A stretch of DNA of 64,000 nucleotides, taken from assembly GCA_964016885.1 (NCBI GenBank), contig OZ024741.1, forward strand, positions 11,098,001 through 11,162,000. Direction: 5' to 3'. This DNA comes from Eledone cirrhosa (lineage: Eukaryota). The translations under genes and the position numbers were made by a program. Below the pieces are notes generated by a model that searched no databases, was not told the origin of the DNA, and saw only the letters and a list, made by a program, of their open reading frames with translations. Positions 12,302-56,738 of this stretch are shown here, piece by piece (the first letter of the stretch is position 1; the number at the start of each line of letters is the position of its first letter).

Positions 12302-14447
12302 ATGCGAAAACACAACATTGACTTCTCTACCAAGAACATCCCAATCCCACCGAAAAAATTTTACCTTCGGATGCTCACGCAAAAAATCGATCTATTTGCG
12401 AAAAGACTTAGATGGAGAACTTTTTTCTATGACAGATATTGCGACAACCAAGACTTCGGCACCAAGGAGAGATTCGGATTTATTACCTACAAATCTCCGC
12501 CCCTGAACCCCTTGCTCGCACCCTTCGAGAATGACCTCTTCCAACTGGTCAAGAACATTAAATTTAAACCCAGACACAACCGATTCCTACAAAAACTCCG
12601 TAGCAACTTAACAGAGTATGATAACACAAATGACATCATGGTGCATTCGGATAAAACTGGGAACCTATACTTTGTCAACCCTGACAGATACCACACACTG
12701 ATCAGGAGCAGCCTAAACTCCACCTATAAAAAGGCCAACCACTCTTGCATCGAGGACATAAATCGAGATGGACAACAAATCACCTCCAGCCTCGGGGTCG
12801 CCGACCGCACGGAACCTCTAGACCCACGGACACCATACTTCACACTGAAGGACCATAAATCCGATTTTGACCGTAAACCCTCTATCAGGCTTATTAACCG
12901 ACATAGGGAGAATCAGCAAAAAAATCCTAGACCGCGTGATACCAAAAGTCAAGCAACACACCCGACTTAGCCTATGGATCAACACCCAGGAAGTAATCTC
13001 CTGGTTCAGCAATATGGAGGATAAACGAGAAACTAAATTCATACAGTTCGACATAGAGAGCTACTATGCTTCAATCACCTTACCGCTACTTACTGCCGCC
13101 TTGGACTTCGCCGAAACACTTGTGCCCATCACCGACCAGGAAAGAAAAATCATCCTCCACGCCAGGAAGACAGTCTTACTCTTTGACGACTCTAAATGGA
13201 TAAAAAGAGCTCCCGACTCACCCTTCGACGTCAGCATGGGCGCCACGGACTCGGCGGAGGTCACAGACCTTATAGGATTATTCCTAATAGCCAAACTCAC
13301 TGATATGTTTCCTGCATTCGGTGGTGGATTGTACCGTGATGATGGGCTCCTTACCCTTAAAGGGTACAACCCCAGTAGTACAGATCGGGTCCGGAAACAA
13401 TTAATCAGATTCTTCCGCGACTGGGCATTTAAAATAACCCTACAAACGTCCCTGACCCGAGTAAACTTCCTGGACGTGACCCTCGACCTCGAAAACGACC
13501 TGTACTACCCATACAGGAAACCTAATGACAATCTGCACTACATCCACCGCCGATAAAACCATCCTAGGAACATCACAAACAACCTGGTCAAAAACATCTC
13601 CCTCCGCATATCCCGTTTGTCAGCTAATGAGCGGATATTCGATGAACATGCGCCTTATTACAACCAGGCTCTCAAGCGGAGTGGTTTCCGGGAGGAAATA
13701 TCCTACTGTTCAGCTCCCATTAGCGGAACCAGCAGGAGACACCGCCGCTCACGCAATGTAACATGGTTCAATCCTCCCCACAACGCAGAGGTGACAACTC
13801 CCATCGGGAAACTATTCTTTAGGCTCATTGAAAAACACTTCCCATTACAACACCGCTACCACAACATAATTAACAAAAATACCATCAAACTCTCTTACAG
13901 CACTACACCAAACTTCGCACAAAACATCGTCTCCTCTAACAACAAAAAACTCAACCCCGATGGCAGAAATAACCTAAATAGCAGTGGAGAACCGACCAGG
14001 AGGTGTAACTGCCCGGATAGATCTATTTGCCCACTCGACAATAGATGCAGAGACCGTAATGTGATCTACCAGTGCAACGTGAGGACGGATACCTCCAATA
14101 AAGCCTATATAGGACTTACCGCATGTGACTTCAAGACCCGGCTATACCAACATAGACATACCTTCCGAAACCCGGCCCGGCGTCACGCCACTACACTTTC
14201 GGGCCACATATGGGACCTCAAGGACAACAACATCACCTATGATCTCACTTGGAGATTACTGTCCAGAGCCAATTCTTACACGGGAGGACGCCGTCCGTGC
14301 AATTTATGCTCGGAGGAAACTTTACAAATGCTGTTTTCGACGGACCAACTCCTAAACAAGAAAGATGAACTGGTCACTGCATGTAAACATAGATTGCGTA
14401 GGACTTACCTCGCCCTCAAACCCCATAATGACCCGGGGGGGGGGTAG
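12302..14447 (+). pseudogene. PLE RT-GIY-YIG ORF, copy 2 with identical lesions
   Basis: Translations match copy 1 except terminal poly-Gly length. Confidence 0.93.
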
Positions 14448-18247: not shown

Positions 18248-18711
18248 AGGGAATATATATATATTCATTTATTTATTCAATTTAAGCGTCCGTATAGAAC
18301 TAGTAAGCCATGACAGACTCAGGGAAGTATCGAGGAACTCCTTACAGTTAGTAATCAAAAAGAGTTAGTGAGACAATAAAAGGAAAAGAAAAAGAAAAGA
18401 AAAGAAAATGGAAAAAAAACAATAAAAACTAAAATAGAAATAAAAGAAATAGAAAAGGAGAAAACTAAAAATAACAAAAATAACATTCCAAATATTGAAG
18501 GAAGCCAATGAGTGTGTGTGTGTGTGTGGGGGGGGGGGGGTTATACATAAATAAACGAAAAGGAAAATAGGAAACAAGGGAAGCTGTAAAAGAGAAGATT
18601 GTGTTGAATATTTTCCTAGCTTCCATTTATTCCAATATTGGTAGTTTTTTAAAGATTGGTTTAAATATGGCCTCTCTCTCAGACTGATAGTTTCTACAAT
18701 GGAACAAATAA

Positions 18712-18816
18712 TTATTTCTACTTTTGGCACAAGGCCAGCAATTATCCCAGTGTATGACTGGTACTTTATTTTATCGACCTCGTAAGGTGGAAAGGCAAAG
18801 TTAACCTCGACGGAAT
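18712..18816 (-). mobile_element. SINE fragment (OK/OR-like octopus SINE body)
   Basis: GACTGGTACTTTATTTTATCGAC...GAAAGGCAAAGTTAACCTCG shared with 27905-28095, 53632-53780 and the 61-62 kb copies. Confidence 0.75.
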
Positions 18817-21800
18817 GCCAAAGAGTTTCTGGAGAGTCACCACAAGAACATAAAGGTGAATCTCTACGACCTATACTTGGTAGAATGTAGTACAAAGGTA
18901 ATGTCCAGTTCAAAGGTTTATGTCCAGTTCAAAGGTATATGTCCAGTTTAAAGGTATATGTTCAGTTCAAAGGTAATGTCCAGTTCAAAGGTATATGTCT
19001 AGTTCAAAGTAATGTCCAGTTCAATGGTATATGTTCAGTTCAAAGGTAATGTCCAGTTCAAAGGTAATGTCCAGTTCAAAGGTATATGTCCAGTTCAAAG
19101 GTATATGTCCAGTTCAAAGGTAATGTCCAGTTCAAAGGTATATGTCCAGTTCAAAGGTATATGTCCAGTTCAAAGGTAATGTCCAGTTCAAAGGTATATG
19201 TCCAGTTCAAAGGTGATGTCCAGTTCAAAGGTATATGTCCAGTTCAAAGGTATATGTCCAGTTCAAAGGTAATGTCCAGTTCAAAGGTATATGTCCAGTT
19301 CAAAGGTATATGTCCAGTTCAAAGGTAATGTCCAGTTCAAAGGTATATGTCCAGTTCAAAGGTATATGTCCAGTTCAAAGGTAATGTCCAGTTCAATGGT
19401 ATATGTCCAATTCAAAGGTAATATCCAGTTCAAAGGTATATGTCCAGTTCAAAGGTATATGTCCAGTTCAAAGGTAATGTCCAGTTCAAAGGTATATGTC
19501 CAGTTCAAAGGTATATGTCCAGTTCAAATGTAATGTCCAGTTCAAAGGTAATGTCCAGTTCAATGGTATATGTCCAGTTCAAAGGTAATGTCCAGTTCAA
19601 AGGTATATGTCCAGTTCAAAGGTATATGTCCAGTTCAAAGGTAATGTCCAGTTCAAAGGTATATGTCCAGTTCAAAGGTAATGTCCAGTTCAAAGGTAAT
19701 GTCCAGTTTAAAGGTATATGTCCAGTTCAAAGGTATATGTCCAGTTCAAAGGTATATGTCCAGTTCAAAGGTAATGTCCAGTTCAAAGGTATATGTCCAG
19801 TTCAAAGGTAATGTCCAGTTCAAAAGTATATGTCCCGTTCAAAGGTAATGTCCAGTTCAATGGTATATGTCCAGTTCAAAGGTATATGTCCAGTTCAAAG
19901 GTATATGTCCAGTTCAAAGGTATATGTCCAGTTCAAAGGTAATGTCCAGTTCAAAGGTATATGTCCAGTTCAAAGGTATATGTCCAGTTCAAAGGTAATG
20001 TCCAGTTCAAAGGTATATGTCCAGTTCAAAGGTATATGTCCAGTTCAAAGGTAATGTCCAGTTCAATGGTATATGTCCAGTTCAAAGGCATATGTCCAGT
20101 TCAAAGGTAATGTCCAGTTCAATGGTATATGTCCAGTTCAAAGGTAATGTCCAGTTCAAAGGTATATGTCCAGTTCAAAGGTATATGTCCAGTTCAAAGG
20201 TAATGTCCAGTTCAAAGGTATATGTCCAGTTCAAAGGTATATGTCCAGTTCAAAAGTAATGTCCAGTTCAAAAGTGTATGTCCAGTTCAAAGGTATATGT
20301 CCAGTTCAAAAGTGTATGTCCAGTTCAAAGGTAATGTCCAGTTTAAAGGTATATGTCCAGTTCAAAGGTATATGTCCAGTTCAAAGGTATATGTCCAGTT
20401 CAAAGGTAATGTCCAGTTCAATGGTATATGTCCAGTTCAAAGGTAATGTCCAGTTCAAATGTATATGTCCAGTTCAAAGGTATATGTCCAATTCAAAGGT
20501 AATGTCCAGTTCAAATGTATATGTCCAGTTCAAACGTAATGTCCAGTTCAAAGGTATATGTCCAGTTCAAAGGTAATGTCCAGTTCAATGGTATATGTCC
20601 AGTTCAAAGGTAATGTCCAGTTCAAAGGTATATGTCCAGTTCAAAGGTATATGTCCAGTTCAAAGGTATATGTCCAGTTCAAAGGTAATGTCCAGTTCAA
20701 AGGTAATGTCCAGTTCAATGGTATATGTCCAGTTCAAAGGTAATGTCCAGTTCAAAGGTATATGTCCAGTTCAAAGGTATATGTCCAGTTCAAAGGTAAT
20801 GTCCAGTTCAAAGGTATATGTCCAGTTCAAAGGTAATGTCCAGTTCAAAGGTATATGTCCAGTTCAAAGGTAATGTCCAGTTTAAAGGTATATGTCCAGT
20901 TCAAAGGTAATGTCCAGTTCAAAGGTATATGTCCAGTTCAAAGGTAATGTCCAGTTCAATGGTATATGTCCAGTTCAAAGGTAATGTCCAGTTCAAAGGT
21001 ATATGCCCAGTTCAAAGGTATATGTCCAGTTCAAAGGTAATGTCCAGTTCAAAGGTATATGTCTAGTTCAAAGGTATATGTCCAGTTCAAAAGTAATGTC
21101 CAGTTCAAAAGTGTATGTCCAGTTCAAAGGTATATGTCCAGTTCAAAAGTGTATGTCCAGTTCAAAGGTAATGTCCAGTTTAAAGGTATATGTCCAGTTC
21201 AAAGGTATATGTCCAGTTCAAAGGTATATGTCCAGTTCAAAGGTAATGTCCAGTTCAATGGTATATGTCCAGTTCAAAGGTAATGTCCAGTTCAAAGGTA
21301 ATGTCCAGTTCAAAGGTATATGTCCAGTTCAAAGGTATATGTCCAGTTCAAAGGTATATGTCCAGTTCAAAGGTAATGTCCAGTTCAAAGGTATATGTCC
21401 AGTTCAAAGGTATATGTCCAGTTCAAATGTAATGTCCAGTTCAAAGGTAATGTCCAGTTCAATGGTATATGTCCAGTTCAAAGGTAATGTCCAGTTCAAA
21501 GGTATATGTCCAGTTCAAAGGTATATGTCCAGTTCAAAGGTAATGTCCAGTTCAAAGGTATATGTCCAGTTTAAAGGTATATGTCCAGTTCAAAGGTAAT
21601 GTCCAGTTCAAAGGTAATGTCCAGTTTAAAGGTATATGTCCAGTTCAAAGGTATATGTCCAGTTCAAAGGTATATGTCCAGTTCAAAGGTAATGTCCAGT
21701 TCAAAGGTGTATGTCCAGTTCAAAGGTAATGTCCAGTTCAAAAGTATATGTCCCGTTCAAAGGTAATGTCCAGTTCAATGGTATATGTCCAGTTCAAAGG

Positions 21801-24800
21801 TATATGTCCAGTTCAAAGGTATATGTCCAGTTCAAAGGTATATGTCCAGTTCAAAGGTAATGTCCAGTTCAAAGGTATATGTCCAGTTCAAAGGTATATG
21901 TCCAGTTCAAAGGTAATGTCCAGTTCAAAGGTATATGTCCAGTTCAAAGGTATATGTCCAGTTCAAAGGTAATGTCCAGTTCAATGGTATATGTCCAGTT
22001 CAAAGGTATATGTCCAGTTCAAAGGTAATGTCCAGTTCAATGGTATATGTCCAGTTCAAAGGTAATGTCCAGTTCAAAGGTATATGTCCAGTTCAAAGGT
22101 ATATGTCCAGTTCAAAGGTATATGTCCAGTTCAAAGGTATATGTCCAGTTCAAAGGTATATGTCCAGTTCAAAAGTAATGTCCAGTTCAAAAGTGTATGT
22201 CCAGTTCAAAGGTATATGTCCAGTTCAAAAGTGTATGTCCAGTTCAAAGGTAATGTCCAGTTTAAAGGTATATGTCCAGTTCAAAGGTATATGTCCAGTT
22301 CAAAGGTATATGTCCAGTTCAAAGGTAATGTCCAGTTCAATGGTATATGCCCAGTTCAAAGGTAATGTCCAGTTCAAAGGTATATGTCCAGTTCAAAGGT
22401 ATATGTCCAGTTCAAAGGTAATGTCCAGTTCAAAGGTATATGTCCAGTTCAAAGGTATATGTCCAGTTCAAAGGTAATGTCCAGTTCAAAGGTATATGTC
22501 CAGTTCAAAGGTATATGTCCAGTTCAAAAGTAATGTCCAGTTCAAAAGTGTATGTCCAGTTCAAAGGTATATGTCCAGTTCAAAAGTGTATGTCCAGTTC
22601 AAAGGTAATGTCCAGTTTAAAGGTATATGTCCAGTTCAAAGGTATATGTCCAGTTCAAAGGTATATGTCCAGTTCAAAGGTAATGTCCAGTTCAATGGTA
22701 TATGTCCAGTTCAAAGGTAATGTCCAGTTCAAAGGTATATGTCCAGTTCAAAGGTATATGTCCAGTTCAAAGGTAATGTCCAGTTCAAATGTATATGTCC
22801 AGTTCAAACGTAATGTCCAGTTCAAAGGTATATGTCCAGTTCAAAGGTAATGTCCAGTTCAATGGTATATGTCCAGTTCAAAGGTAATGTCCAGTTCAAA
22901 GGTATATGTCCAGTTCAAAGGTATATGTCCAGTTCAAAGGTATATGTCCAGTTCAAAGGTAATGTCCAGTTCAAAGGTAATGTCCAGTTCAATGGTATAT
23001 GTCCAGTTCAAAGGTAATGTCCAGTTCAAAGGTATATGTCCAGTTCAAATGTATATGTCCAGTTCAAAGGTAATGTCCAGTTCAAAGGTATATGTCCAGT
23101 TCAAAGGTAATGTCCAGTTCAAAGGTATATGTCCAGTTCAAAGGTAATGTCCAGTTTAAAGGTATATGTCCAGTTCAAAGGTATATGTCCAATTCAAAGG
23201 TAATGTCCAGTTCAAAGATATATGTCCAGTTCAAAGGTAATGTCCAGTTCAAAGGTATATGCCCAGTTCAAAGGTATATGTCCAGTTCAAAGGTAATGTC
23301 CAGTTCAAAGGTATTTGTCCAGTTCAAAGGTATATGTCCAGTTCAAAAGTAATGTCCAGTTCAAAAGTGTATGTCCAGTTCAAGGGTATATGTCCGGTTC
23401 AAAAGTGTATGTCCAGTTCAAAGGTAATGTCCAGTTTAAAGGTATATGTCCAGTTCAAAGGTATATGTCCAGTTCAAAGGTATATGTCCAGTTCAAAGGT
23501 AATGTCCAGTTCAATGGTATATGTCCAGTTCAAAGGTAATGTCCAGTTCAAAGGTAATGTCCAGTTCAAAGGTATATGTCCAGTTCAAAGGTATATGTCC
23601 AGTTCAAAGGTAATGTCCAGTTCAAAGGTATATGTCCAGTTCAAAGGTATATGTCCAGTTCAAAGGTAATGTCCAGTTCAAAGGTATATGTCCAGTTCAA
23701 AGGTATATGTCCAGTTCAAATGTAATGTCCAGTTCAGAGGTAATGTCCAGTTCAATGGTATATGTCCAGTTCAAAGGTAATGTCCAGTTCAAAGGTATAT
23801 GTCCAGTTCAAAGGTATATGTCCAGTTCAAAGGTAATGTCCAGTTCAAAGGTATATGTCCAGTTTAAAGGTATATGTCCAGTTCAAAGGTAATGTCCAGT
23901 TCAAAGGTAATGTCCAGTTTAAAGGTATATGTCCAGTTCAAAGGTATATGTCCAGTTCAAAGGTATATGTCCAGTTCAAAGGTATATGTCCAGTTCAAAG
24001 GTAATGTCCAGTTCAAAGGTGTATATCCAGTTCAAAGGTAATGTCCAGTTCAAAAGTATATGTCCCGTTCAAAGGTAATGTCCAGTTCAATGGTATATGT
24101 CCAGTTCAAAGGTATATGTCCAGTTCAAAGGTATATGTCCAGTTCAAAGGTATATGTCCAGTTCAAAGGTAATGTCCAGTTCAAAGGTATATGTCCAGTT
24201 CAAAGGTATATGTCCAGTTCAAAGGTAATGTCCAGTTCAAAGGTATATGTCCAGTTTAAAGGTATATGTCCAGTTCAAAGGTAATGTCCAGTTCAAAGGT
24301 AATGTCCAGTTTAAAGGTATATGTCCAGTTCAAAGGTATATGTCCAGTTCAAAGGTATATGTCCAGTTCAAAGGTATATGTCCAGTTCAAAGGTAATGTC
24401 CAGTTCAAAGGTGTATATCCAGTTCAAAGGTAATGTCCAGTTCAAAAGTATATGTCCCGTTCAAAGGTAATGTCCAGTTCAATGGTATATGTCCAGTTCA
24501 AAGGTATATGTCCAGTTCAAAGGTATATGTCCAGTTCAAAGGTATATGTCCAGTTCAAAGGTAATGTCCAGTTCAAAGGTATATGTCCAGTTCAAAGGTA
24601 TATGTCCAGTTCAACGTTAATGTCCAGTTCAAAGGTATATGTCCAGTTCAAAGGTATATGTCCAGTTCAAAGGTAATGTCCAGTTCAATGGTATATGTCC
24701 AGTTCAAAGGTATATGTCCAGTTCAAAGGTAATGTCCAGTTCAATGGTATATGTCCAGTTCAAAGGTAATGTCCAGTTCAAAGGTATATGTCCAGTTCAA

Positions 24801-26990
24801 AGGTATATGTCCAGTTCAAAGGTAATGTCCAGTTCAAAGGTATATGTCCAGTTCAAATGTATATGTCCAGTTCAAAAGTAATGTCCAGTTCAAAAGTGTA
24901 TGTCCAGTTCAAAGGTATATGTCCAGTTCAAAAGTGTATGTCCAGTTCAAAGGTAATGTCCAGTTTAAAGGTATATGTCCAGTTCAAAGGTATATGTCCA
25001 GTTCAAAGGTATATGTCCAGTTCAAAGGTAATGTCCAGTTCAATGGTATATGCCCAGTTCAAAGGTAATGTCCAGTTCAAAGGTATATGTCCAGTTCAAA
25101 GGTATATGTCCAGTTCAAAGGTAATGTCCAGTTCAAATGTATATGTCCAGTTCAAACGTAATGTCCAGTTCAAAGGTATATGTCCAGTTCAAAGGTAATG
25201 TCCAGTTCAATGGTATATGTCCAGTTCAAAGGTAATGTCCAGTTCAAAGGTATATGTCCAGTTCAAAGGTATATGTCCAGTTCAAAGGTATATGTCCAGT
25301 TCAAAGGTAATGTCCAGTTCAAAGGTAATGTCCAGTTCAATGGTATATGTCCAGTTCAAAGGTATATGTCCAGTTCAAAGGTATATGTCCAGTTCAAAGG
25401 TAATGTCCAGTTCAAAGGTATATGTCCAGTTCAAAGGTAATGTCCAGTTCAAAGGTATATGTCCAGTTCAAAGGTAATGTCCAGTTTAAAGGTATATGTC
25501 CAGTTCAAAGGTATATGTCCAGTTCAAAGGTAATGTCCAGTTCAAAGGTATATGTCCAGTTCAAAGGTAATGTCCAGTTCAATGGTATATGTCCAGTTCA
25601 AAGGTAATGTCCAGTTCAAAGGTATATGCCCAGTTCAAAGGTATATGTCCAGTTCAAAGGTAATGTCCAGTTCAAAGGTATATGTCCAGTTCAAAGGTAT
25701 ATGTCCAGTTCAAAAGTAATGTCCAGTTCAAAAGTGTATGTCCAGTTCAAAGGTATATGTCCAGTTCAAAAGTGTATGTCCAGTTCAAAGGTAATGTCCA
25801 GTTTAAAGGTATATGTCCAGTTCAAAGGTATATGTCCAGTTCAAAGGTATATGTCCAGTTCAAAGGTAATGTCCAGTTCAATGGTATATGTCCAGTTCAA
25901 AGGTAATGTCCAGTTCAAAGGTAATGTCCAGTTCAAAGGTATATGTCCAGTTCAAAGGTATATGTCCAGTTCAAAGGTATATGTCCAGTTCAAAGGTAAT
26001 GTCCAGTTCAAAGGTAATGTCCAGTTCAAAGGTAATGTCCAGTTCAAAGGTATATGTCCAGTTCAAAGGTATATGTCCAGTTCAAAGGTATATGTCCAGT
26101 TCAAAGGTATATGTCCAGTTCAAAGGTAATGTCCAGTTCAAAGGTATATGTCCAGTTCAAAGGTATATGTACAGTTCAAAAGTAATGTCCAGTTCAAAAG
26201 TGTATGTCCAGTTCAAAGGTATATGTCCAGTTCAAAAGTGTATGTCCAGTTCAAAAGTAATGTCCAGTTTAAAGGTATATGTCCAGTTCAAAGGTATATG
26301 TCCAGTTGGAAGCCAGCATAGTATATTTTTATTTGCATTACTCTATGATTGATAAGTTTTAAATGTTGTCAAATATGGTTGAGAAAGTGGGGGAACTGAA
26401 ATTTGTGAGCTTATCTCTGGATTTTTCCCAAAATGTTTCCCACCTTTGACTAATTATTTGTTTGCTAAATTATTTTATCTGTGAAAGATATCCAAATCAC
26501 TGTTATTTCTTTATTATTTTCTCAGAAGTAGTTATCTATTTTAACAGAAAGTTCTCAATATCCGTAACCTGGCCCCTTTTTCTTGGCTGAAGCAGTTCTA
26601 GGTTTGATAGACTATCAGTAAATAGAAAACCATTTTCCCAGAGCAATTCCATAGCTGAATCTATGGATAATGTAACTCCCCCCCATTCTTCCTCACATAT
26701 AGTGTAATCCTGATGTAATCTCAAGTTCATATCTCTATAATTATTTTTGAAGGACCAAGTAGCTCCACAGTCCACACCCTTGTCTGAATGTCACCCGTCT
26801 GTGTAGCAGACCCAGCTGTTAAAAGATATTGACTGTTATAGTGTTATGGAGTTCTTTTGCTTCCCCTTTTGTCTTTTTCATCACTATTTTAAACGATTTT
26901 AATAGTTCTATCTATGGAGGAAGTCAAGTATTATGCTGTTTTTTTTTTTGCATTTAAACTGAGCAGTTAGCAATTTGCGTTTCCATGATT
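18817..26990 (-). pseudogene. Decayed I-group (I/Nimb/Loa-like) LINE ORF2 C-terminus (RNase H + zinc knuckle) split by a 7.4-kb satellite
   Basis: Minus strand: VCYTDG*HSDKGVDCGA...FLFTDSLSNL (RNase H), QRWETFWEK, ILCWLPTGH at the right satellite edge, resuming PLYYILPSIGRRDSPLCSCGDSPETLWH at the left edge. Confidence 0.8.
18893..26308. repeat. Satellite of mixed 18/19-bp units TGTCCAGTTCAAAGGTA(T)A, ~400 copies, with ~2.3-kb higher-order structure
   Basis: Direct reading; rare variants CAAACGTAAT (~20531, 22805, 25153) and ATGCCCAG (21003, 23259, 25626) recur at ~2.3-kb spacing. Confidence 0.97.
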
Positions 26991-27001
26991 CTATATATAA
27001 A

Positions 27002-27901
27002 CTAGCAGTAAAGCCCGGCGTTGCTCGGAGTTGTCCAGTAGCTGTGTTAAAGTTACAATGTTAAGTTCCCTTCTTGGCTTAAAAACTGTAGAGTCTACAG
27101 TGTAGACTTTCATGTGGTACTTTTGATTAATATTCCCTCAACCAACTGTATGCCTTATGAAGTTAAGAAAACATAACCATAACCCGAATGTTAAAACAAA
27201 AGAGGATGCTGGGGATAAAAACTGCACTGGTTATCTATTAACAAAAATCGAAAATGTAAACACTGCAACACTTGTCTCAGAGAAAAACATCAGCGTAACC
27301 AAACTATCAGTTATTTTGAAACAAAGAAATTGGATGGACATGAAAAACAAAAAAAAGATGCGTTATCTGTCTGTCGTTTAAAATCATTGCTTCTAAATGA
27401 AAATCTCATAAGGCTTTATTCGAGATCAATGCTTGTTTTACGGTGTATTCAAATAGGCTTATTTTCAAGTAAAAATATTGTATTAAAAGACTTTTTAATG
27501 GAAATGAAGCAAAATGGAAGCTTAATGTTGAAACTTCGAACTCATGAATTTTGCAGGTTAAAATTTTGCTGGTCCGAAAACTCTTCGCGTATTTTTGTAC
27601 TTTTGCACGCGTCGTATATTCGTAACGTAAATAGATAGACAGAATGACGCCATAAAAGGGAAATAACTCGTCTCTCATCTCTATTTATACATTTGAACTG
27701 AAAAATCAATACATTACAAATTCGATTTTTGCACTTGGCGTGGGTCGATTTGAAAATTTTTTTGACCGATGTCTCCGTCGGACCTTCATCTATAAATGCA
27801 GCAATTTCACCAACATGTGAACGTACGGTTTAGGAGATGTGTGCGAACCTTTTAGTAGACAGACAGACAGGCGGACAACCTCAGTTTTATATATATAAAG
27901 A
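27002..27901 (-). mobile_element. Non-autonomous Helitron (Lep1-like architecture)
   Basis: A|TCTTTATATATATAAAAC 5' end, (GTCT)n near the 5' end, CCGAGCAACGCCGG hairpin + CTGCTAG|T 3' end, inserted between A and T. Confidence 0.8.
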
Positions 27902-27904
27902 TAA

Positions 27905-28095
27905 TGGTTTCTAGGCACAAGGCCAACAATTTGGAGGGAGAGGAAAGTCGATTAAATCGACCTCAGTGCGTGACTGGTACTTTATTTTATCGACTCCGTA
28001 AGGATGAAAGGCAAAGCAAAGCTCGACGGGATTTGAACTCAGAACGTAAAAGGCGGTAACTCTATGCCACAAATGTCATTCCACCGCCAAGGATT
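27905..28095 (-). mobile_element. tRNA-derived SINE
   Basis: Reverse complement B box GAGTTCAAATCCC and shared body CTTTGCCTTTCATCC...GTCGATAAAATAAAGTACCAGT. Confidence 0.8.
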
Positions 28096-29549: not shown

Positions 29550-32386
29550 CCCCACCCCGCTTCACACACCTGCTTTCTCACCCCTCCCCCTGCTTTCACC
29601 CAACGCCCACCATGCCCAGCCTGAGATCCTTTCTCCACCAACTACACACCAGCCTCAAACTTTTCCTCACCCCCCTCCTCCCACCCTGCTATCTCCCCTC
29701 TGCCCTTCAACTCTCCTACCTTCTCTTCGCCAAAACCCGGCACTCCAGCCACATCCATTTCCTCAGCCACTGCCTCCGCCTCCACCTTATCCCCCTCGGC
29801 TTCCGTCTAAACTTCCACACTTCCCCCGCCGCTTCCCCCTCCACGCAACGTATCCTCACCCGATCCTCACGCCTCCTAATGCGCAACTCCATCCGTGACT
29901 CCCGTTTCACCCTCCGCCAACTTGACCACCAACTGACCCCCACCCTCCTCCGCCTTAACTCCACCTGCCACCCCCTCCTCGCCCAAGCCATCCTCTCCTT
30001 CATCCAAAACCTCAACCACGACCTCTTCTCCTTCCTCACCTCCACCAAAGCCCGCAAGCTACACTCACTCCTCCCAACCACCCCTATCACCACCACCCGC
30101 CCATCCCCATGAGCCCACCACTCTCCACCCCTCCCTCGAGCCACACCCCTACCCAATCTCCACCCTCCACCTAACCCCTCACCCCCTACACACCCAAACC
30201 CCACCACTTGTTGTCACCATACCCCCTGACCTCCCCCTCTCCGCACCTGAGCGCTCACTCCTTAGTAGAGGCCTTCGCTTCATACCCCACACTCCGCACA
30301 GCGACGAGTTCCGCACCCGAACGGAAGTCGAGCGATTCGTGCGACGCACGAAGCTACAGGCACATTTCGGCCGAACGCCACCGGCTCCGGACGCCCCAGA
30401 CCCGTTTCTCGCCCTGGGCCGACGACCATCTTCTTGGACGCCGGCCCCAGGGCAATTTAGCACCCTGGACGCGTTCGTCGATGCCAGCCGTAGCGCCGTA
30501 AATCGTTTCGACTTCCGCCACCGTTCCAAACGGAATAATATCTCACGGGGCGAACTCCTCGCTCTCCGCTCCCTCCGTAGCCGAGATGACATCGTCATCA
30601 AACCGGCGGACAAGGGAGGCGCCGTGGTGGTGTGGCGCGCGGACATCTACACGGCCGAAGCCCTCAGGCAAGCTCCGTAACCCCCTCTTCTACCGCCCTC
30701 TACCCTCCGATCCCACACCCCTCTACCAACAACAAGTTTCCTCCACCATCCAACACCTTGTCTCCTCCTCCCTCCCCCCCCACCGCTTCCCACCTCATCG
30801 TCCGCACCCCCCGCACCCCCACCATCTACTTCCTCCCCAAACTCCACAAACCCGACAACCCCGGCCGCCCCATCGTCTCCGCTTGCAACTGCCCCACCGA
30901 ACTCATCTCCGCCTTTCTTGACTCCATCCTCGCCCCCCCTTGTCACCACCCTCCCCTCCCACATCTCCGACACCAACCACGCCTTGCGCCTTTTCGACTC
31001 CTTCAGCTACCCACCCGGCCCACAACCCTTCCTCTTCACCCTAGACATCAAGTCCCTCTATACCGTCATCCCCCACGCCGACGGCCTACGCGCCCTCAAA
31101 CACTACCTCGACCTTCGCCCCTCCCCCATTCCCTCCACCCCACCCTCCTTCGCCTCGCCGAGCTGGTCCTCACCCTCAATTGTTTCTCCTTCTCGGGTGA
31201 GTTTTACCAACAGGTCACGGGGGTAGCCATGGGTACAAGAATGGGCCCAAACTATGCCAACCTTTTTGTTGGCCATGTTGAGGCCCAAATCTTTGCCCAG
31301 TACACCGGCCCCACGCCCGAAATGTACGGTCGTTACATCGACGACTGTATCGGAGCCACGACCCTCACCCGAGAACAGCTCGACTCCTTTCTCTCCTTCT
31401 TCTGCTCCTTCCACCCCTCCCTCCACTTCACTACCTCTATCTCCACCACCCACGTCCACTTCTTAGACATCTCCGTCGCCTTCGACCCCTCCCACCACTC
31501 CCTCGTCACCTCCGACTTCTTCAAACCCACCGACTCCCACTCTTAGCTCGACTTCACCTCTTTCCACCCCACACACACTAAACGCTCTATTCCCTACTCC
31601 CAACTCCTCAGGATCCGCCGCCTCTGTAGCCGAGATGCCGACTTTGAGTCCCAGGCCCTTTCCCTAGTCAGCCATTTCATCCGCAGAGGGTCTCCCCCTC
31701 TCTCGTCCACACCGCTCTCACCCGCGCCCGTGCTGTCCACCGCTCCACCACCCTCGCCCCACGCCACCGCACACCCACCCACCGTCTCCCCTTCCCCATC
31801 ACCTACCACCCCTCCACCGCACCAACCTCTGCCTCTTCCGACGCCTCCAGTCCGACCCCTCCACCTCCCACATCTTCCCAGCCCAACCACTCCCCTCCTT
31901 CAAACGCGCACGCAATTCCGCACCCTCCTCGTCCACAGCTCCCCCCCCCATCCCACGACCCCCCCCCGGTTCCTTCCCCAGTTCTAGGCTCCGCTGCAAC
32001 ACCTGTCCCCACATCACCAACACCACCACCTTCCAGGGTCCCAACGGCCACTCTCTCTCTCTGTCCGGCATGCCTTCCGCTGCACCTCCTCCAACCTAGT
32101 CTATGGACTTCGCTGCATGGAGTGCAGCGCGACTTACGTCGGACAGACTGGACGTCGCCTGGCGGACAGATTTACTGAGCACCTCCGGGATATTCGTCTC
32201 GGTGGTAGTTCCCCCATCTCCCGCCACTTTGGTGCCCCTGGACATTCCGCATGCCATCTCACAGTCTGTGGCCTACTCCAATGCCACGGAACACCCGCCA
32301 ATCTCCTAAGAGTTGAACAACGAACCATCTTCATCTTACAGACCCACACTCCCCCCGGCCTGAACTCACCACCCTTATTCCTTTAG
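29550..32386 (+). pseudogene. Extremely C-rich Neptune-like PLE ORF (RT, CxxC linker, GIY-YIG) with several frameshifts
   Basis: HFLSHCLRLHLIPLGF, IVIKPADKGGAVVVW, LDIKSLYTVIPH, GVAMGTRMGPNYANLF, RYIDD, FLDI, KPTDSH, CNTCPH, LVYGLRCMECSATYVGQTGRRLADRFTEH...PPGLN. Confidence 0.92.
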
Positions 32387-53631: not shown

Positions 53632-53780
53632 GTCGACCCCAGTACTTGACTGGTACTATTTTTATCGACTTAGAATGGATGAAAGGCAAAATTGACCTCG
53701 GCGTGATTTGAAGTCAGAGAGCAGAAAATTAAAATGAATACCGCAAAGCTTCTCCCCGATGTCCTAACCACTCATTCTAC
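53632..53780 (-). mobile_element. tRNA-derived SINE whose 5' head runs into the 25-bp satellite
   Basis: Reverse complement: GGTAGAATGAGTGGTTAGGACATCGGGGAGAAGCTTTGCGGTATT...GACTTCAAATCACGCCGAGGTCAATTTTGCCTTTCATCC. Confidence 0.78.
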
Positions 53781-56738
53781 CCGATGTCCTAACCACTCAT
53801 TCTACCCGATGTCCTAACCACTCATTCTACCCGATGTCCTAACCACTCATTCTACCCGATGTCCTAACCACTCATTCTACCCGATGTCCTAACCACTCAT
53901 TCTACCCGATGTCCTAACCACTCATTCTACCCAATCTCCTAACGACTCATTCTACCCGATGTCCTAACCACTCATTCTACCCGATGTCCTAACCACTCAT
54001 TCTACCCAATCTCCTAACTACTCATTCTACCCGATGTCCTAACCACTCATTCTACCCGATGTCCTAACCACTCATTCTACCCGATGTCCTAACCACTCAT
54101 TCTACCCGATGCCCTAACCACTCATTCTACCCGATCTCCTAACCACTCATTCTACCCGATGTCCTAACCACTCATTCTACCCGATGTCCTAACCACTCAT
54201 TCTACCCGATCTCCTAACCACTCATTCTACCCGATGTCCTAACCACTCATTCTACCCGATCTCCTAACCACTCATTCTACCCGATGTCCTAACCACTCAT
54301 TCTACCCGGTGTCCTAACCACTCATTCTACCCGATCTCCTAACCACTCATTCTACCCGATGTCCTAACCACTCATTCTACCCGATGTCCTAACCACTCAT
54401 TCTACCAGATGTCCTAACCACTCATTCTACCCGATCTCCTAACCACTCATTCTACCCGATGTCCTAACCACTCATTCTACCCGATGTCCTAACCACTCAT
54501 TCTACCAGATGTCCTAACCACTCATTCTACCCGATGTCCTAACCACTCATTCTACCCGATGTCCTAACCACTCATTCTACCCGATTTCCTAACCACTCAT
54601 TCTACCCGATGTCCTAACCACTCATTCTACCCGATGTCCTAACCACTCATTCTACCAGATGTCCTAACCACTCATTCTACCCGATGTCCTAACCACTCAT
54701 TCTACCCGATCTCCTAACCACTCATTCTACCCGATGTCCTAACCACTCATTCTACCAGATGTCCTAACCACTCATTCTACCCGATCTCCTAACCACTCAT
54801 TCTACCCGATGTCCTAACCACTCATTCTACCCGATCCCCTAACCACTCATTCTACCCCATCTCCTAACCACTCATTCTACCCGATGTCCTAACCACTCAT
54901 TCTACCCGATGTCCTAACCACTCATTCTACCCGATCTCCTAACCACTCATTCTACCCGATCTCCTAACCACTCATTCTACCCCATCTCCTAACCACTCAT
55001 TCTACCCGATGTCCTAACCACTCATTCTACCCAATCTCCTAACCACTCATTCTACCCGATGTCCTAACCACTCATTCTACCAGATGTCCTAACCACTCAT
55101 TCTACCCAATCTCCTAACCACTCATTCTACCCGATGTCCTAACCACTCATTCTACCCGATGTCCTAACCACTCATTCTACCCAATCTCCTAACCACTCAT
55201 TCTACCCGATGTCCTAACCACTCATTCTACCCGATGTCCTAACCACTCATTCTACCCAATCTCCTAACCACTCATTCTACCCGATGTCCTAACCACTCAT
55301 TCTACCCGATGTCCTAACCACTCATTCTACCCGATCTCCTAACCACTCATTCTACCCGATGTCCTAACCACTCATTCTACCCCATCTCCTAACCACTCAT
55401 TCTACCCGATGTCCTAACCACTCATTCTACCCAATCTCCTAACCACTCATTCTACCCGATGTCCTAACCACTCATTCTACCAGATGTCCTAACCACTCAT
55501 TCTACCCGATCTCCTAACCACTCATTCTACCCCATCTCCTAACCACTCATTCTACCCGATGTCCTAACCACTCATTCTACCCAATCTCCTAACCACTCAT
55601 TCTACCCGATGTCCTAACCACTCATTCTACCCGATGTCCTAACCACTCATTCTACCAGATGTCCTAACCACTCATTCTACCCAATCTCCTAACCACTCAT
55701 TCTACCCGATGTCCTAACCACTCATTCTACCCGATGTCCTAACCACTCATTCTACCCCATCTCCTAACCACTCATTCTACCCGATGTCCTAACCACTCAT
55801 TCTACCAGATGTCCTAACCACTCATTCTACCAGATGTCCTAACCACTCATTCTACCCGATGTCCTAACCACTCATTCTACCCGATGTCCTAACCACTCAT
55901 TCTACCCAATCTCCTAACCACTCATTCTACCAGATGTCCTAACCACTCATTCTACCTGATGTCCTAACCACTCATTCTACCCGATGTCCTAACCACTCAT
56001 TCTACCCGATGTCTAACGACTCATTCTACCCGATGTCCTAACCACTCATTCTAGCCGATGTCCTAACCACTCATTCTACCCGATGTCCTAACCACTCATT
56101 CTACCCGATATCCTAACCACTCATTCTACCCGATGTCCTAACCACTCATTCTACCCGATGTCTAACGACTCATTCTATCCGATGTCCTAACCACTCATTC
56201 TACCCGATGTCCTAACCACTCATTCTACCCGATGTTCTAACCACTCATTCTACCCGATGTCTAACGCCTCCTTCTACCCGATGTCCTAACCACTCATTCT
56301 ACCCCATCTCCTAACCACTCATTCTACCCGATGTCCTAACCACTCATTCTACCCCATCTCCTAACCACTCATTCTACCCGATGTCCTAACCACTCATTCT
56401 ACCCCATCTCCTAACCACTCATTCTACCCGATGTCCTAACCACTCATTCTACCCCATCTCCTAACCACTCATTCTACCCGATGTCCTAACCACTCATTCT
56501 ACCCGATGTCCTAACCACTTATTCTACCCGATGTCCTAACCACTCATTCTACTCGATGTCCTAACCACTCAATCTACCCGATGTCCTAACCACTCATTCT
56601 ACCCAATCCCTAACCACTCATTCTACCCGATGTCCTAACGCCTCCTTCTACCCGATGTCCTAACCACTTATTCTACCCGATGTCCTGACCACTGATTCTA
56701 CCCGATGTCCTAACCACTCATTCTACCCGATGTCCTAA
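53755..56738. repeat. 25-bp satellite GTCCTAACCACTCATTCTACCCGAT, ~119 copies
   Basis: Direct reading; homogeneous core, more degenerate right end. Confidence 0.97.

What the first reader, a model, noticed from the sequence alone, without database searches (positions are those of the whole stretch)
18817..26990. 7.4-kb satellite born from 19 nt of LINE ORF2 coding sequence
Seen: the monomer's reverse complement A-ACT-GGA-CAT-ATA-CCT-TTG encodes TGHIPL. Right of the array the minus strand reads ...ILCWLP-TGH; left of it, PLYYILPSIGRRDSPLCSCGDSPETLWH. Collapsing the array to one 19-mer restores ILCWLPTGHIPLYYILPSIGRRDSPLCSCGDSPETLWH. This fits the recalled LRTGH..LN..L......SP.C.CG...ET..H motif preceding the zinc knuckle of I-group LINEs, and an RNase H remnant (YTDG*, FTDSLS) lies upstream. 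Inference: a traceable, in situ ~400-fold amplification of a TE coding segment into satellite DNA.
Basis: partly seen in the sequence, partly recalled or inferred. Interest (0 to 1): 0.75.

Follow-up and report, generated by a model that had tools for sequence, protein, structure and literature searches.

The report
Satellite grown from LINE coding fragment
A 7.4-kb run of 398 copies of a 19-letter piece of a dead jumping gene's coding end sits exactly where other copies of that gene have one copy; three more copies of the gene elsewhere carry the same run, so it was likely seeded before this copy landed here and likely grew in place afterwards, a clear example of a known way that satellites are born.

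Summary
Window 18889-26307 is 398 tandem 19/18-nt monomers. Its two flanks are contiguous parts of one decayed LINE ORF2 3' end (RNase H, TGH, CX1CX8HX4C). Of 29 other copies of this LINE read across the site, 27 have no tandem duplication: 23 have one monomer, in frame (TGHIPL). The family is an old RT plus RNase-H-type non-LTR element with more than 1000 candidate copies, all broken.

The "in situ 400-fold" reading is only partly right. The same array sits at the same LINE position at three other loci: two on C23 (21 and 23 monomers) and one on C5 (about 750 monomers, 13.7 kb). These copies have different 5' truncation points and unrelated outer flanks, and three keep the family's normal 3' tail. 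All four arrays share a derived 18-nt monomer that 0 of 23 single-monomer copies has.

The array therefore most likely arose once, by slippage between 8-nt direct repeats 19 nt apart. It likely spread on a defective LINE lineage and then grew separately at C2 and C5. Flank phylogeny neither supports nor rejects one origin.

This is a new member of a known kind (TE-derived minisatellite or satellite). Interest is moderate.

The parts
26308..27004 (-). 5'-truncated LINE ORF2 fragment upstream of the array: RNase H-region remnant (..CYTDG*.., ..FLFTDSLS..), ending ..ILCWLP. It has a ~91-nt deletion at about 26489 relative to other copies; this removes the WIPGH..ADELAK stretch.
   Evidence: Paralogues align from about 27002-27005 down to 26308 at 84-87% identity, with the extra ~91 nt at 26489. 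The fragment maps to reference copy positions 1020-1724.
18889..26307 (-). Array of 398 monomers (19 nt AACTGGACATATACCTTTG = (A)ACT GGA CAT ATA CCT TTG = TGHIPL, and an 18-nt derivative AACTGGACATTACCTTTG). It holds long-range internal duplications at lags of about 0.39, 1.9, 2.3 and 4.6 kb.
   Evidence: Searches give the composition. Searches give the internal duplications: the best 1.5-kb partners are 97-98% identical against a median of 95.5% over 100 offsets, and a 24-monomer exact run recurs at a lag of 21 monomers.
18815..18888 (-). Continuation of the LINE ORF2: (L)YYILPSIGRRDSPLCSCGDSPETLWH, the first part of the CX1CX8HX4C motif.
   Evidence: It aligns to other copies immediately after their single monomer.
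18712..18814 (-). 103-nt fragment of a short interspersed repeat inserted in the LINE right after ..ETLWH.
   Evidence: It is absent at this place from the other LINE copies aligned, except L034. It is present elsewhere in L008, L012, L023, L024 and at window about 27960-28072. A full copy lies at the same LINE site in L034. There is no Rfam match.
18254..18711 (-). Rest of the LINE 3' end, down to the family's usual end ..ACGGACGCTTAAATTGAATAAATAAAT.., followed by unrelated sequence.
   Evidence: maps it to reference positions 1799-2248. One search shows the 3' end shared with L002, L008, L009, L023 and the C5 copy.

Best explanation
The array is 398 tandem copies of a 19/18-nt piece of the 3' coding end of a decayed RNase-H-type LINE, lying exactly where other copies of that LINE have one copy. 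The first duplication likely arose by slippage between two 8-nt direct repeats 19 nt apart. The small array was likely carried to at least four loci on a defective LINE lineage by retrotransposition. It likely then grew at this locus by unequal exchange of multi-monomer blocks. Shown: the array's place inside the LINE, single-monomer paralogues, three other arrays at the same LINE position with their own flanks and truncation points, the shared 18-nt monomer, and locus-specific variant make-up. Inferred: the slippage start, one origin, transport by retrotransposition rather than conversion, and unequal exchange as the growth mode. No function is indicated; it most likely behaves as neutral repeated DNA.
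For: (1) Position. Of 29 other copies spanning the site, 23 have one 17-19-nt monomer, 3 a partly deleted one, 1 (L032) lacks exactly 19 nt, and 2 (L023, L024) have arrays.
(2) LINE identity. A paralogue gives RVT_1 (E 4e-14). Database relatives carry PF03372/PF14529, PF00078 and PF00075. The single-monomer copy aligns with P0012 from WxPGH..AD.LAK through TGH to C-x-C-x8-H-x4-C (E 9e-12).
(3) Proto-repeat. The single-copy state reads TTCGAACT..(19 nt)..TTTGAACT. Both gain (arrays) and exact 19-nt loss (L032) exist, as the Haber-Louis model described in PMC3389668 section 3.4 expects.
(4) Other arrays. C23:15889881-15890275 has 21 monomers, C23:17355743-17356178 has 23, and C5:3213563-3227310 has 13,748 nt or about 754 copies. 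Each lies between the same LINE flanks.
(5) Independent insertions. The 5' ends are at reference positions 1020, 1410, 1504 and 1570. Window, C5 and L023 keep the family's 3' end followed by different DNA. The outer 5-kb flanks share only the LINE part and short interspersed repeats.
(6) Shared derived character. The 18-nt CATTAC monomer makes up 144 of 398 (window), 8 of 21, 10 of 23, and 570 of 744 segments (C5). It occurs in 0 of 23 single-monomer copies. The CCATT variant is also shared by the window (26) and the C23 arrays.
(7) Arrays break the ORF. The first in-frame stop comes 27, 45 and 39 codons after the W of WLPTGH in window, L023 and L024. In the C5 copy it falls at the junction itself. 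Carriers therefore could not encode their own CCHC end.
(8) Local growth. Long-range duplications occur within the window array. Homogenisation is locus-specific: 740 of 744 C5 segments end in A, against mostly G in the window.
(9) Genome-wide pattern counts are fully accounted for by these four loci.
Against: Flank phylogeny does not show the four carriers as one group. In the tree of 27 copies by 428 columns only L023+L024 pair (100/99), and all four are together in 5% of 200 bootstrap trees. The tree with them held together is 4.4 log-likelihood units worse (p-AU 0.36: not rejected, not shown). The few shared flank substitutions are patchy. The C at TCTA[C]CAAG is in window, L023 and L024 but not in C5, and it also occurs in single-monomer copy L045. 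The edge monomers of the four arrays differ. Only 4 carriers were found in a family with at least 1143 first-look candidates, so the carrier lineage, if real, was barely active. Target-site duplications were not examined. Array lengths rest on the assembly alone.
Confidence: 0.6

Rival explanations
1. Recurrent local birth: each of the four LINE copies was inserted with one monomer, and the slippage-prone site expanded independently three or four times.
For: The site does slip: an exact 19-nt loss (L032) and small indels in other copies. The flank tree does not unite the carriers. C5's adjacent flank (TTCAATCAAC) looks more like single-monomer copy L002 than like the other carriers. This genome makes many kb-scale arrays of 14-44-nt units.
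Against: The same one-base deletion (CATATAC to CATTAC) would have to arise and spread in at least three arrays. It is the only common length variant in each array and is absent from 0 of 23 single-monomer copies. No copy with 2-5 monomers was found.
Confidence: 0.2
2. One origin, but spread between pre-existing LINE copies by ectopic gene conversion or recombination rather than by retrotransposition.
For: It would explain shared array variants without shared flank substitutions. One shared substitution lies only 9 nt from the array in three carriers.
Against: Conversion between about 90%-identical, short (0.2-0.7 kb) homologies on different chromosomes is expected to be rare (general knowledge, not tested). 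Different 5' truncation points do not discriminate between the two routes.
Confidence: 0.12
3. Assembly artefact: the array or its length is produced by mis-assembly of a short repeat.
For: Length cannot be checked with the data at hand. The contigs of public runs are too short to span it.
Against: Four separate loci show clean junctions to unique flanks. The array has ordered internal variant structure rather than identical units.
Confidence: 0.03
4. A pre-existing satellite that only resembles, or was captured by, the LINE.
For: A 77%-similar 19-nt array on C3 has flanks without LINE similarity.
Against: The 19-mer is in frame inside ORF2 in 23 of 29 copies examined. It aligns with the TGH motif of distant LINE proteins. 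All four arrays of the satellite proper are inside LINE copies.
Confidence: 0.01

Closest known systems
TE-derived minisatellites and satellites, including LINE ORF2-derived ones. Table 1 of the review PMC9659126 lists PROsat (Phodopus) and Pvc20 (harbour seal), both from LINE-1 ORF2, and the chicken HinfI repeat from the CR1 3'UTR plus part of ORF2 (passages read). The abstract of PMC3389668 reports that 7,276 human tandem repeats, 23% of minisatellites and satellites, derive from TEs (read).
   Same: A tandem array whose unit is an internal piece of a transposable element. It is flanked by the rest of the element and expanded by local duplication.
   Different: The unit is very short (19 nt) and comes from a conserved coding motif. 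Copies with 0, 1, about 20, about 400 and about 750 units all survive in one genome. Total amount is small, about 22 kb in the assembly.
Retroelements that carry an internal tandem repeat and spread it: PisTR-A in the 3'UTR of the Ogre retrotransposon (Table 1 of PMC9659126) and the VNTR of human SVA elements (recalled, not looked up).
   Same: Short arrays inside a retroelement would be dispersed by retrotransposition and later amplified at some loci (the 'library of short arrays' idea quoted in PMC9659126 section 2).
   Different: Here the array lies inside ORF2 and destroys its end, so the carrier must have been moved by other elements. Transport by retrotransposition is inferred, not shown.
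Haber and Louis model of minisatellite initiation between short flanking direct repeats (as described in PMC3389668 section 3.4).
   Same: The progenitor has 8-nt direct repeats (TTCGAACT / TTTGAACT) exactly one unit apart. Both gain and exact loss of the unit are seen.
   Different: The repeats are imperfect (1 mismatch in 8). The initiating event itself cannot be observed.

Membership tests
Non-LTR retrotransposon (LINE) with RNase H after RT (I / Tad1-like architecture) | Reverse transcriptase domain | tested here: met
   Paralogue L011 read with X at stops (P0005) matches RVT_1, E 4.2e-14, 53.2 bits against a cut-off of 29.6. The window's own copy is truncated downstream of RT.
Non-LTR retrotransposon (LINE) with RNase H after RT (I / Tad1-like architecture) | RNase H domain downstream of RT | tested here: inconclusive
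   No Pfam RNase_H hit for P0004 or P0005 at E up to 1. The window remnant against P0012 is not significant. P0004 does align to the end of the RNase H region of P0012 (WVPGH..GNERADILAK), a protein with precomputed PF00075. The YTDG / E / TDS spacing is judged from memory of RNase H motifs.
Non-LTR retrotransposon (LINE) with RNase H after RT (I / Tad1-like architecture) | C-terminal Cys/His motif after the (L)RTGH box | tested here: met
   Single-monomer copies read ..L.TGHIPLNYILSRIGRRDSPLCSCGD.PE.LWHYLF.C. This is the same C-x-C-x8-H-x4-C spacing as P0012.
Non-LTR retrotransposon (LINE) with RNase H after RT (I / Tad1-like architecture) | APE-type endonuclease at the N-terminus | not tested
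   No 5' part of this family was recovered; copies seen are 5'-truncated. Database relatives of the RT part carry PF03372/PF14529. The clade (I, LOA, Tad1, Nimb ..) was not resolved.
Non-LTR retrotransposon (LINE) with RNase H after RT (I / Tad1-like architecture) | Variable 5' truncation with a common 3' end | tested here: met
   5' ends lie at reference positions 1020, 1410, 1504 and 1570. The common 3' end ..TTAAATTGAATAAATAAAT.. occurs in 7 of 8 copies examined (the exception is L024, whose hit is weak).
TE-derived tandem repeat | Unit homologous to an internal TE segment, and array flanked by the contiguous remainder of the TE | tested here: met
Satellite DNA in the strict sense (very long arrays, often heterochromatic, high genome share) | Arrays of hundreds of kb or a sizeable genome fraction | tested here: not met
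   Four arrays of 7.4, 13.7, 0.4 and 0.4 kb make about 22 kb of a 3.0-Gb assembly. By unit size it is a minisatellite grown to satellite-like arrays.
Minisatellite started between flanking direct repeats (Haber-Louis) | 5-20-nt direct repeats one unit apart in the progenitor; gain and loss of one unit | tested here: met
   TTCGAACT and TTTGAACT lie 19 nt apart in single-monomer copies. L032 lacks exactly 19 nt. The model is as described in PMC3389668.

The most novel reading that the evidence does not exclude
A defective sub-lineage of an old LINE carried a minisatellite born inside its own ORF2 and dropped it at several chromosomal sites. Two of these then grew independently into 7- and 14-kb arrays, each homogenised for its own variant. 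One genome thus preserves the whole path of satellite birth (0, 1, about 20, about 400 and about 750 units), with the vehicle still attached.
Probability: 0.55. Interest if true: 0.5.

Novelty: new member of a known kind. Interest (0 to 1): 0.38.

Why it matters
Satellites are usually met when their origin is already erased. Here the progenitor sequence, the proto-repeat that allowed the first duplication, small arrays and two large arrays coexist, all still inside recognisable copies of the source element. That makes the seeding-by-transposon model and locus-specific homogenisation directly testable, for example by comparing individuals and sister species. It adds an example to a known phenomenon rather than a new principle.

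Tried and rejected
- Pfam on three read-through frames of L025 gave no family.
- The search for homologous proteins with the RNase H-CCHC piece against longer proteins found none.
The LINE clade was therefore not resolved.
- The first flank tree (25 rows) gave the window a long branch (0.14). After re-alignment with the C5 copy it was 0.057, the family median. I take the long branch as an alignment artefact and drew nothing from it.
- BLAST-type searches of the own genome with array pieces reported only C2, C23 (twice), C3 and C12. They missed the 13.7-kb C5 array.
- An excess of 65 matches appeared in a pattern count (193 reported against 128 counted in the window). It was explained only when a guessed variant pattern found C5.
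- Three hits of the 3'-junction pattern were single-monomer copies with a mutated upstream base, not arrays.
- The C12 20-nt array (68% similar) looks unrelated.
- The search of earlier findings returned nothing.
- Sequencing runs: no RNA holder is listed. The contigs laid on 26250-26900 were short, multi-copy and did not bridge. The very high word depth over the array bins cannot be read as copy number. One loose end there reads like the zero-monomer form.
- Rfam gave no match for the short interspersed repeat in L034.
- Target-site duplications, the second read-laying run and structure prediction were not used.
Full report
**What is there.** Window 18889-26307 is one tandem array of period 19, 398.2 copies, 93% matches. 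Parsed on the minus strand it holds 398 monomers: 253 of 19 nt, 144 of 18 nt and 1 of 17 nt. The main forms are AACTGGACATATACCTTTG (171 of 386 parsed segments) and AACTGGACATTACCTTTG (105 of 386). Next come a CCATT form (26) and rarer ones.

**The flanks are one LINE.** The window is G000:C2:11098001-11162000 in a 3.0-Gb assembly.
- The right flank finds many paralogues at 74-87% identity (70 matches; 40 of 328 candidates scored).
- In these, the window's two flanks align next to each other with a single monomer between them..GCTGGCTTCG AACTGGACATATACCTTTG AACTACATTCTATCAAG...
- I read 29 other copies across the site. 23 have one 17-19-nt monomer, 3 a partly deleted one, 1 (L032) lacks exactly 19 nt, and 2 have arrays.
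- Rows left out of that count: L003-L006 and L026 (duplicates of L002 and L025), L007 and L011 (interrupted before the site), and L013-L022 (the window itself).
- The two array copies were fetched because they hold arrays, so 2 of 29 is not a frequency.
- Compared with its relatives, the window copy also has a ~91-nt deletion at about 26489 and a 103-nt piece of a short interspersed repeat at 18712-18814.
- It runs from about 27004 to the family's normal 3' end at about 18254.

**What kind of LINE.**
- A longer paralogue read with X at stops matches RVT_1 (E 4e-14).
- Its database relatives are 800-1600-residue proteins with endonuclease (PF03372/PF14529), RT and often RNase H domains.
- A single-monomer copy read the same way aligns to the C-terminus of one of these (P0012) over 149 residues, from WVPGH..ADILAK through MRTGH to C-x-C-x8-H-x4-C (E 9e-12).
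- The 19-mer thus encodes the TGHIPL of that box.
- The RNase H call is only partly backed. Pfam gives no RNase_H hit, and the window's own remnant is not significant.
- The family is old: 164 matches from 150 scored of 1143 candidates, most listed rows with internal stops, and no listed open frame longer than 369 residues.

**The satellite elsewhere.** Pattern searches of the whole assembly found the same array at three more places.
- C23:15889881-15890275 has 21 monomers and C23:17355743-17356178 has 23.
- C5:3213563-3227310 spans 13,748 nt, about 754 copies. It came to light only after an unexplained excess in one count was followed up.
- All three lie between the same LINE flanks at the same position.
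- The four carriers start at different points of the LINE: reference positions 1020, 1410, 1504 and 1570.
- Window, C5 and L023 keep the family's 3' end followed by different DNA.
- Their outer 5-kb flanks share nothing but the LINE part and short interspersed repeats. They are separate insertions, not segmental duplicates.
- Counts of four array patterns are fully explained by these loci (53; 55; 78 and 79; and 69 and 45 together with 80).
- A 1.9-kb array of a 77%-similar 19-mer (AACTGGACATTACATATAG) on C3 has flanks without LINE similarity. Its relation is open.

**One origin or several.**
- All four arrays mix the 19-nt unit with the same 18-nt unit, which has lost one base (CATATAC to CATTAC). 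Its share is 144 of 398, 8 of 21, 10 of 23, and 570 of 744 segments.
- None of the 23 single-monomer copies has this deletion.
- It is the only common length variant in each array, and it is not a simple dinucleotide slip. I read it as inherited.
- Each array is otherwise homogenised in its own way. C5 ends its units in A (740 of 744) and has a GG-to-AG form. The C23 arrays are rich in CCATT. The window keeps mostly the ancestral form but holds the other variants at low frequency.
- Against one origin, the flank tree (27 copies, 428 columns) is star-like. Rows L012, L034, L035, L045, L007 and L011 were left out because their blocks were too short. Only L023+L024 pair (100/99).
- All four carriers group in 5% of 200 bootstrap trees. 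Holding them together costs 4.4 log-likelihood units (p-AU 0.36), so one clade is neither shown nor rejected.
- Shared flank substitutions are few and patchy.
- The terminal branches of the carriers equal the family median, so they were inserted during the family's main activity.

**Mechanism, with what is inferred.**
- The single-copy sequence has two 8-nt direct repeats, TTCGAACT and TTTGAACT, exactly 19 nt apart.
- This is the set-up of the Haber-Louis model for gain or loss of the enclosed unit (PMC3389668 section 3.4). Both gain (arrays) and exact loss (L032) are seen.
- I infer that the first duplication arose this way in a source element, and that the 18-nt variant arose in a small array.
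- I further infer that this carrier was copied to new sites by the machinery of intact relatives, because its ORF2 frame hits a stop within the first monomers of the array.
- At C2 and C5 the array then grew. In the window, blocks at lags of about 0.39, 1.9, 2.3 and 4.6 kb are 97-98% identical, against a median of 95.5% over 100 offsets. A 24-monomer run is repeated exactly 21 monomers away. This fits unequal exchange of multi-monomer blocks.
- Both large arrays lie within 3% of a chromosome-scale contig's start (11.1 of 416 Mb; 3.2 of 135 Mb). The C5 array sits among other kb-scale arrays. This is noted, not tested.

**Known or new.**
- Tandem repeats born from transposable elements are well documented. 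23% of human minisatellites and satellites derive from TEs (abstract of PMC3389668).
- ORF2-derived satellites in a hamster and a seal, a CR1-derived chicken repeat and Ogre's PisTR-A are listed in Table 1 of PMC9659126 (passages).
- This case is a new member of that kind. Its value is that all stages, and the vehicle, are preserved together.
- I did not search the literature for this organism, whose name I do not know.

Noticed in passing
window 53750-56738: A second large minisatellite: 25-nt unit TTCTACCCGATGTCCTAACCACTCA, 119.7 copies, 94% matches. Together with arrays seen in fetched loci (14-nt x215 and 26-nt x130 near the C5 array, 20-nt x107 on C12, 44-nt x32 on C23), it suggests that this genome readily builds kb-scale arrays of 14-44-nt units.
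   Followed up: no
window 18712-18814; L034 337-525: The same short interspersed repeat is inserted at the same point of the LINE (before TTATTTGTTCC) in the window copy (3' 103 nt only) and in L034 (full, with a 13-nt duplication). The two LINE copies are not especially alike (87-91%). This may be an insertion hot spot or microhomology with the repeat's 3' end. There is no Rfam match.
   Followed up: partly
L032 (G000:C1:62656028-62656713): A LINE copy that lacks exactly the 19-nt unit (..GGCTTCGAACTGCATTCTAT..), the reciprocal of the first duplication. A contig end in public runs reads the same way.
   Followed up: partly
L048 3160-5100 (G000:C3:199499659-199501598): A 1.9-kb array of 100.7 copies of AACTGGACATTACATATAG. 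It shares its first 13 nt with the 18-nt monomer, including the derived CATTAC. Its flanks have no LINE similarity.
   Followed up: partly
G000:C334 13751-87374 (L002-L006): Five copies of the LINE fragment with identical match values, spaced 17.8-19.1 kb apart on an unplaced contig. This points to a tandem repeat with a unit of about 18 kb.
   Followed up: no
window 30590-32386 (+), and 13557-14447 (+): Consecutive open frames with weak, below-cut-off matches to RVT_1 (E 0.0076) and GIY-YIG (E 0.0057). This is the pairing expected of a Penelope-like element. The 13557-14447 frame has a similar YIG-type string but no Pfam hit.
   Followed up: partly
own-genome searches (against 80): The BLAST-type DNA search of the own genome did not report the 13.7-kb C5 array, although it is about 95% like the query in places. 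Only an exact-pattern search found it. Absence in that search mode is weak evidence for tandem repeats.
   Followed up: yes
L025 and L026 (G000:C1:341.39 and 342.15 Mb): Two near-identical copies of the LINE fragment with the same surrounding sequence lie 754 kb apart, which suggests a recent segmental duplication.
   Followed up: no
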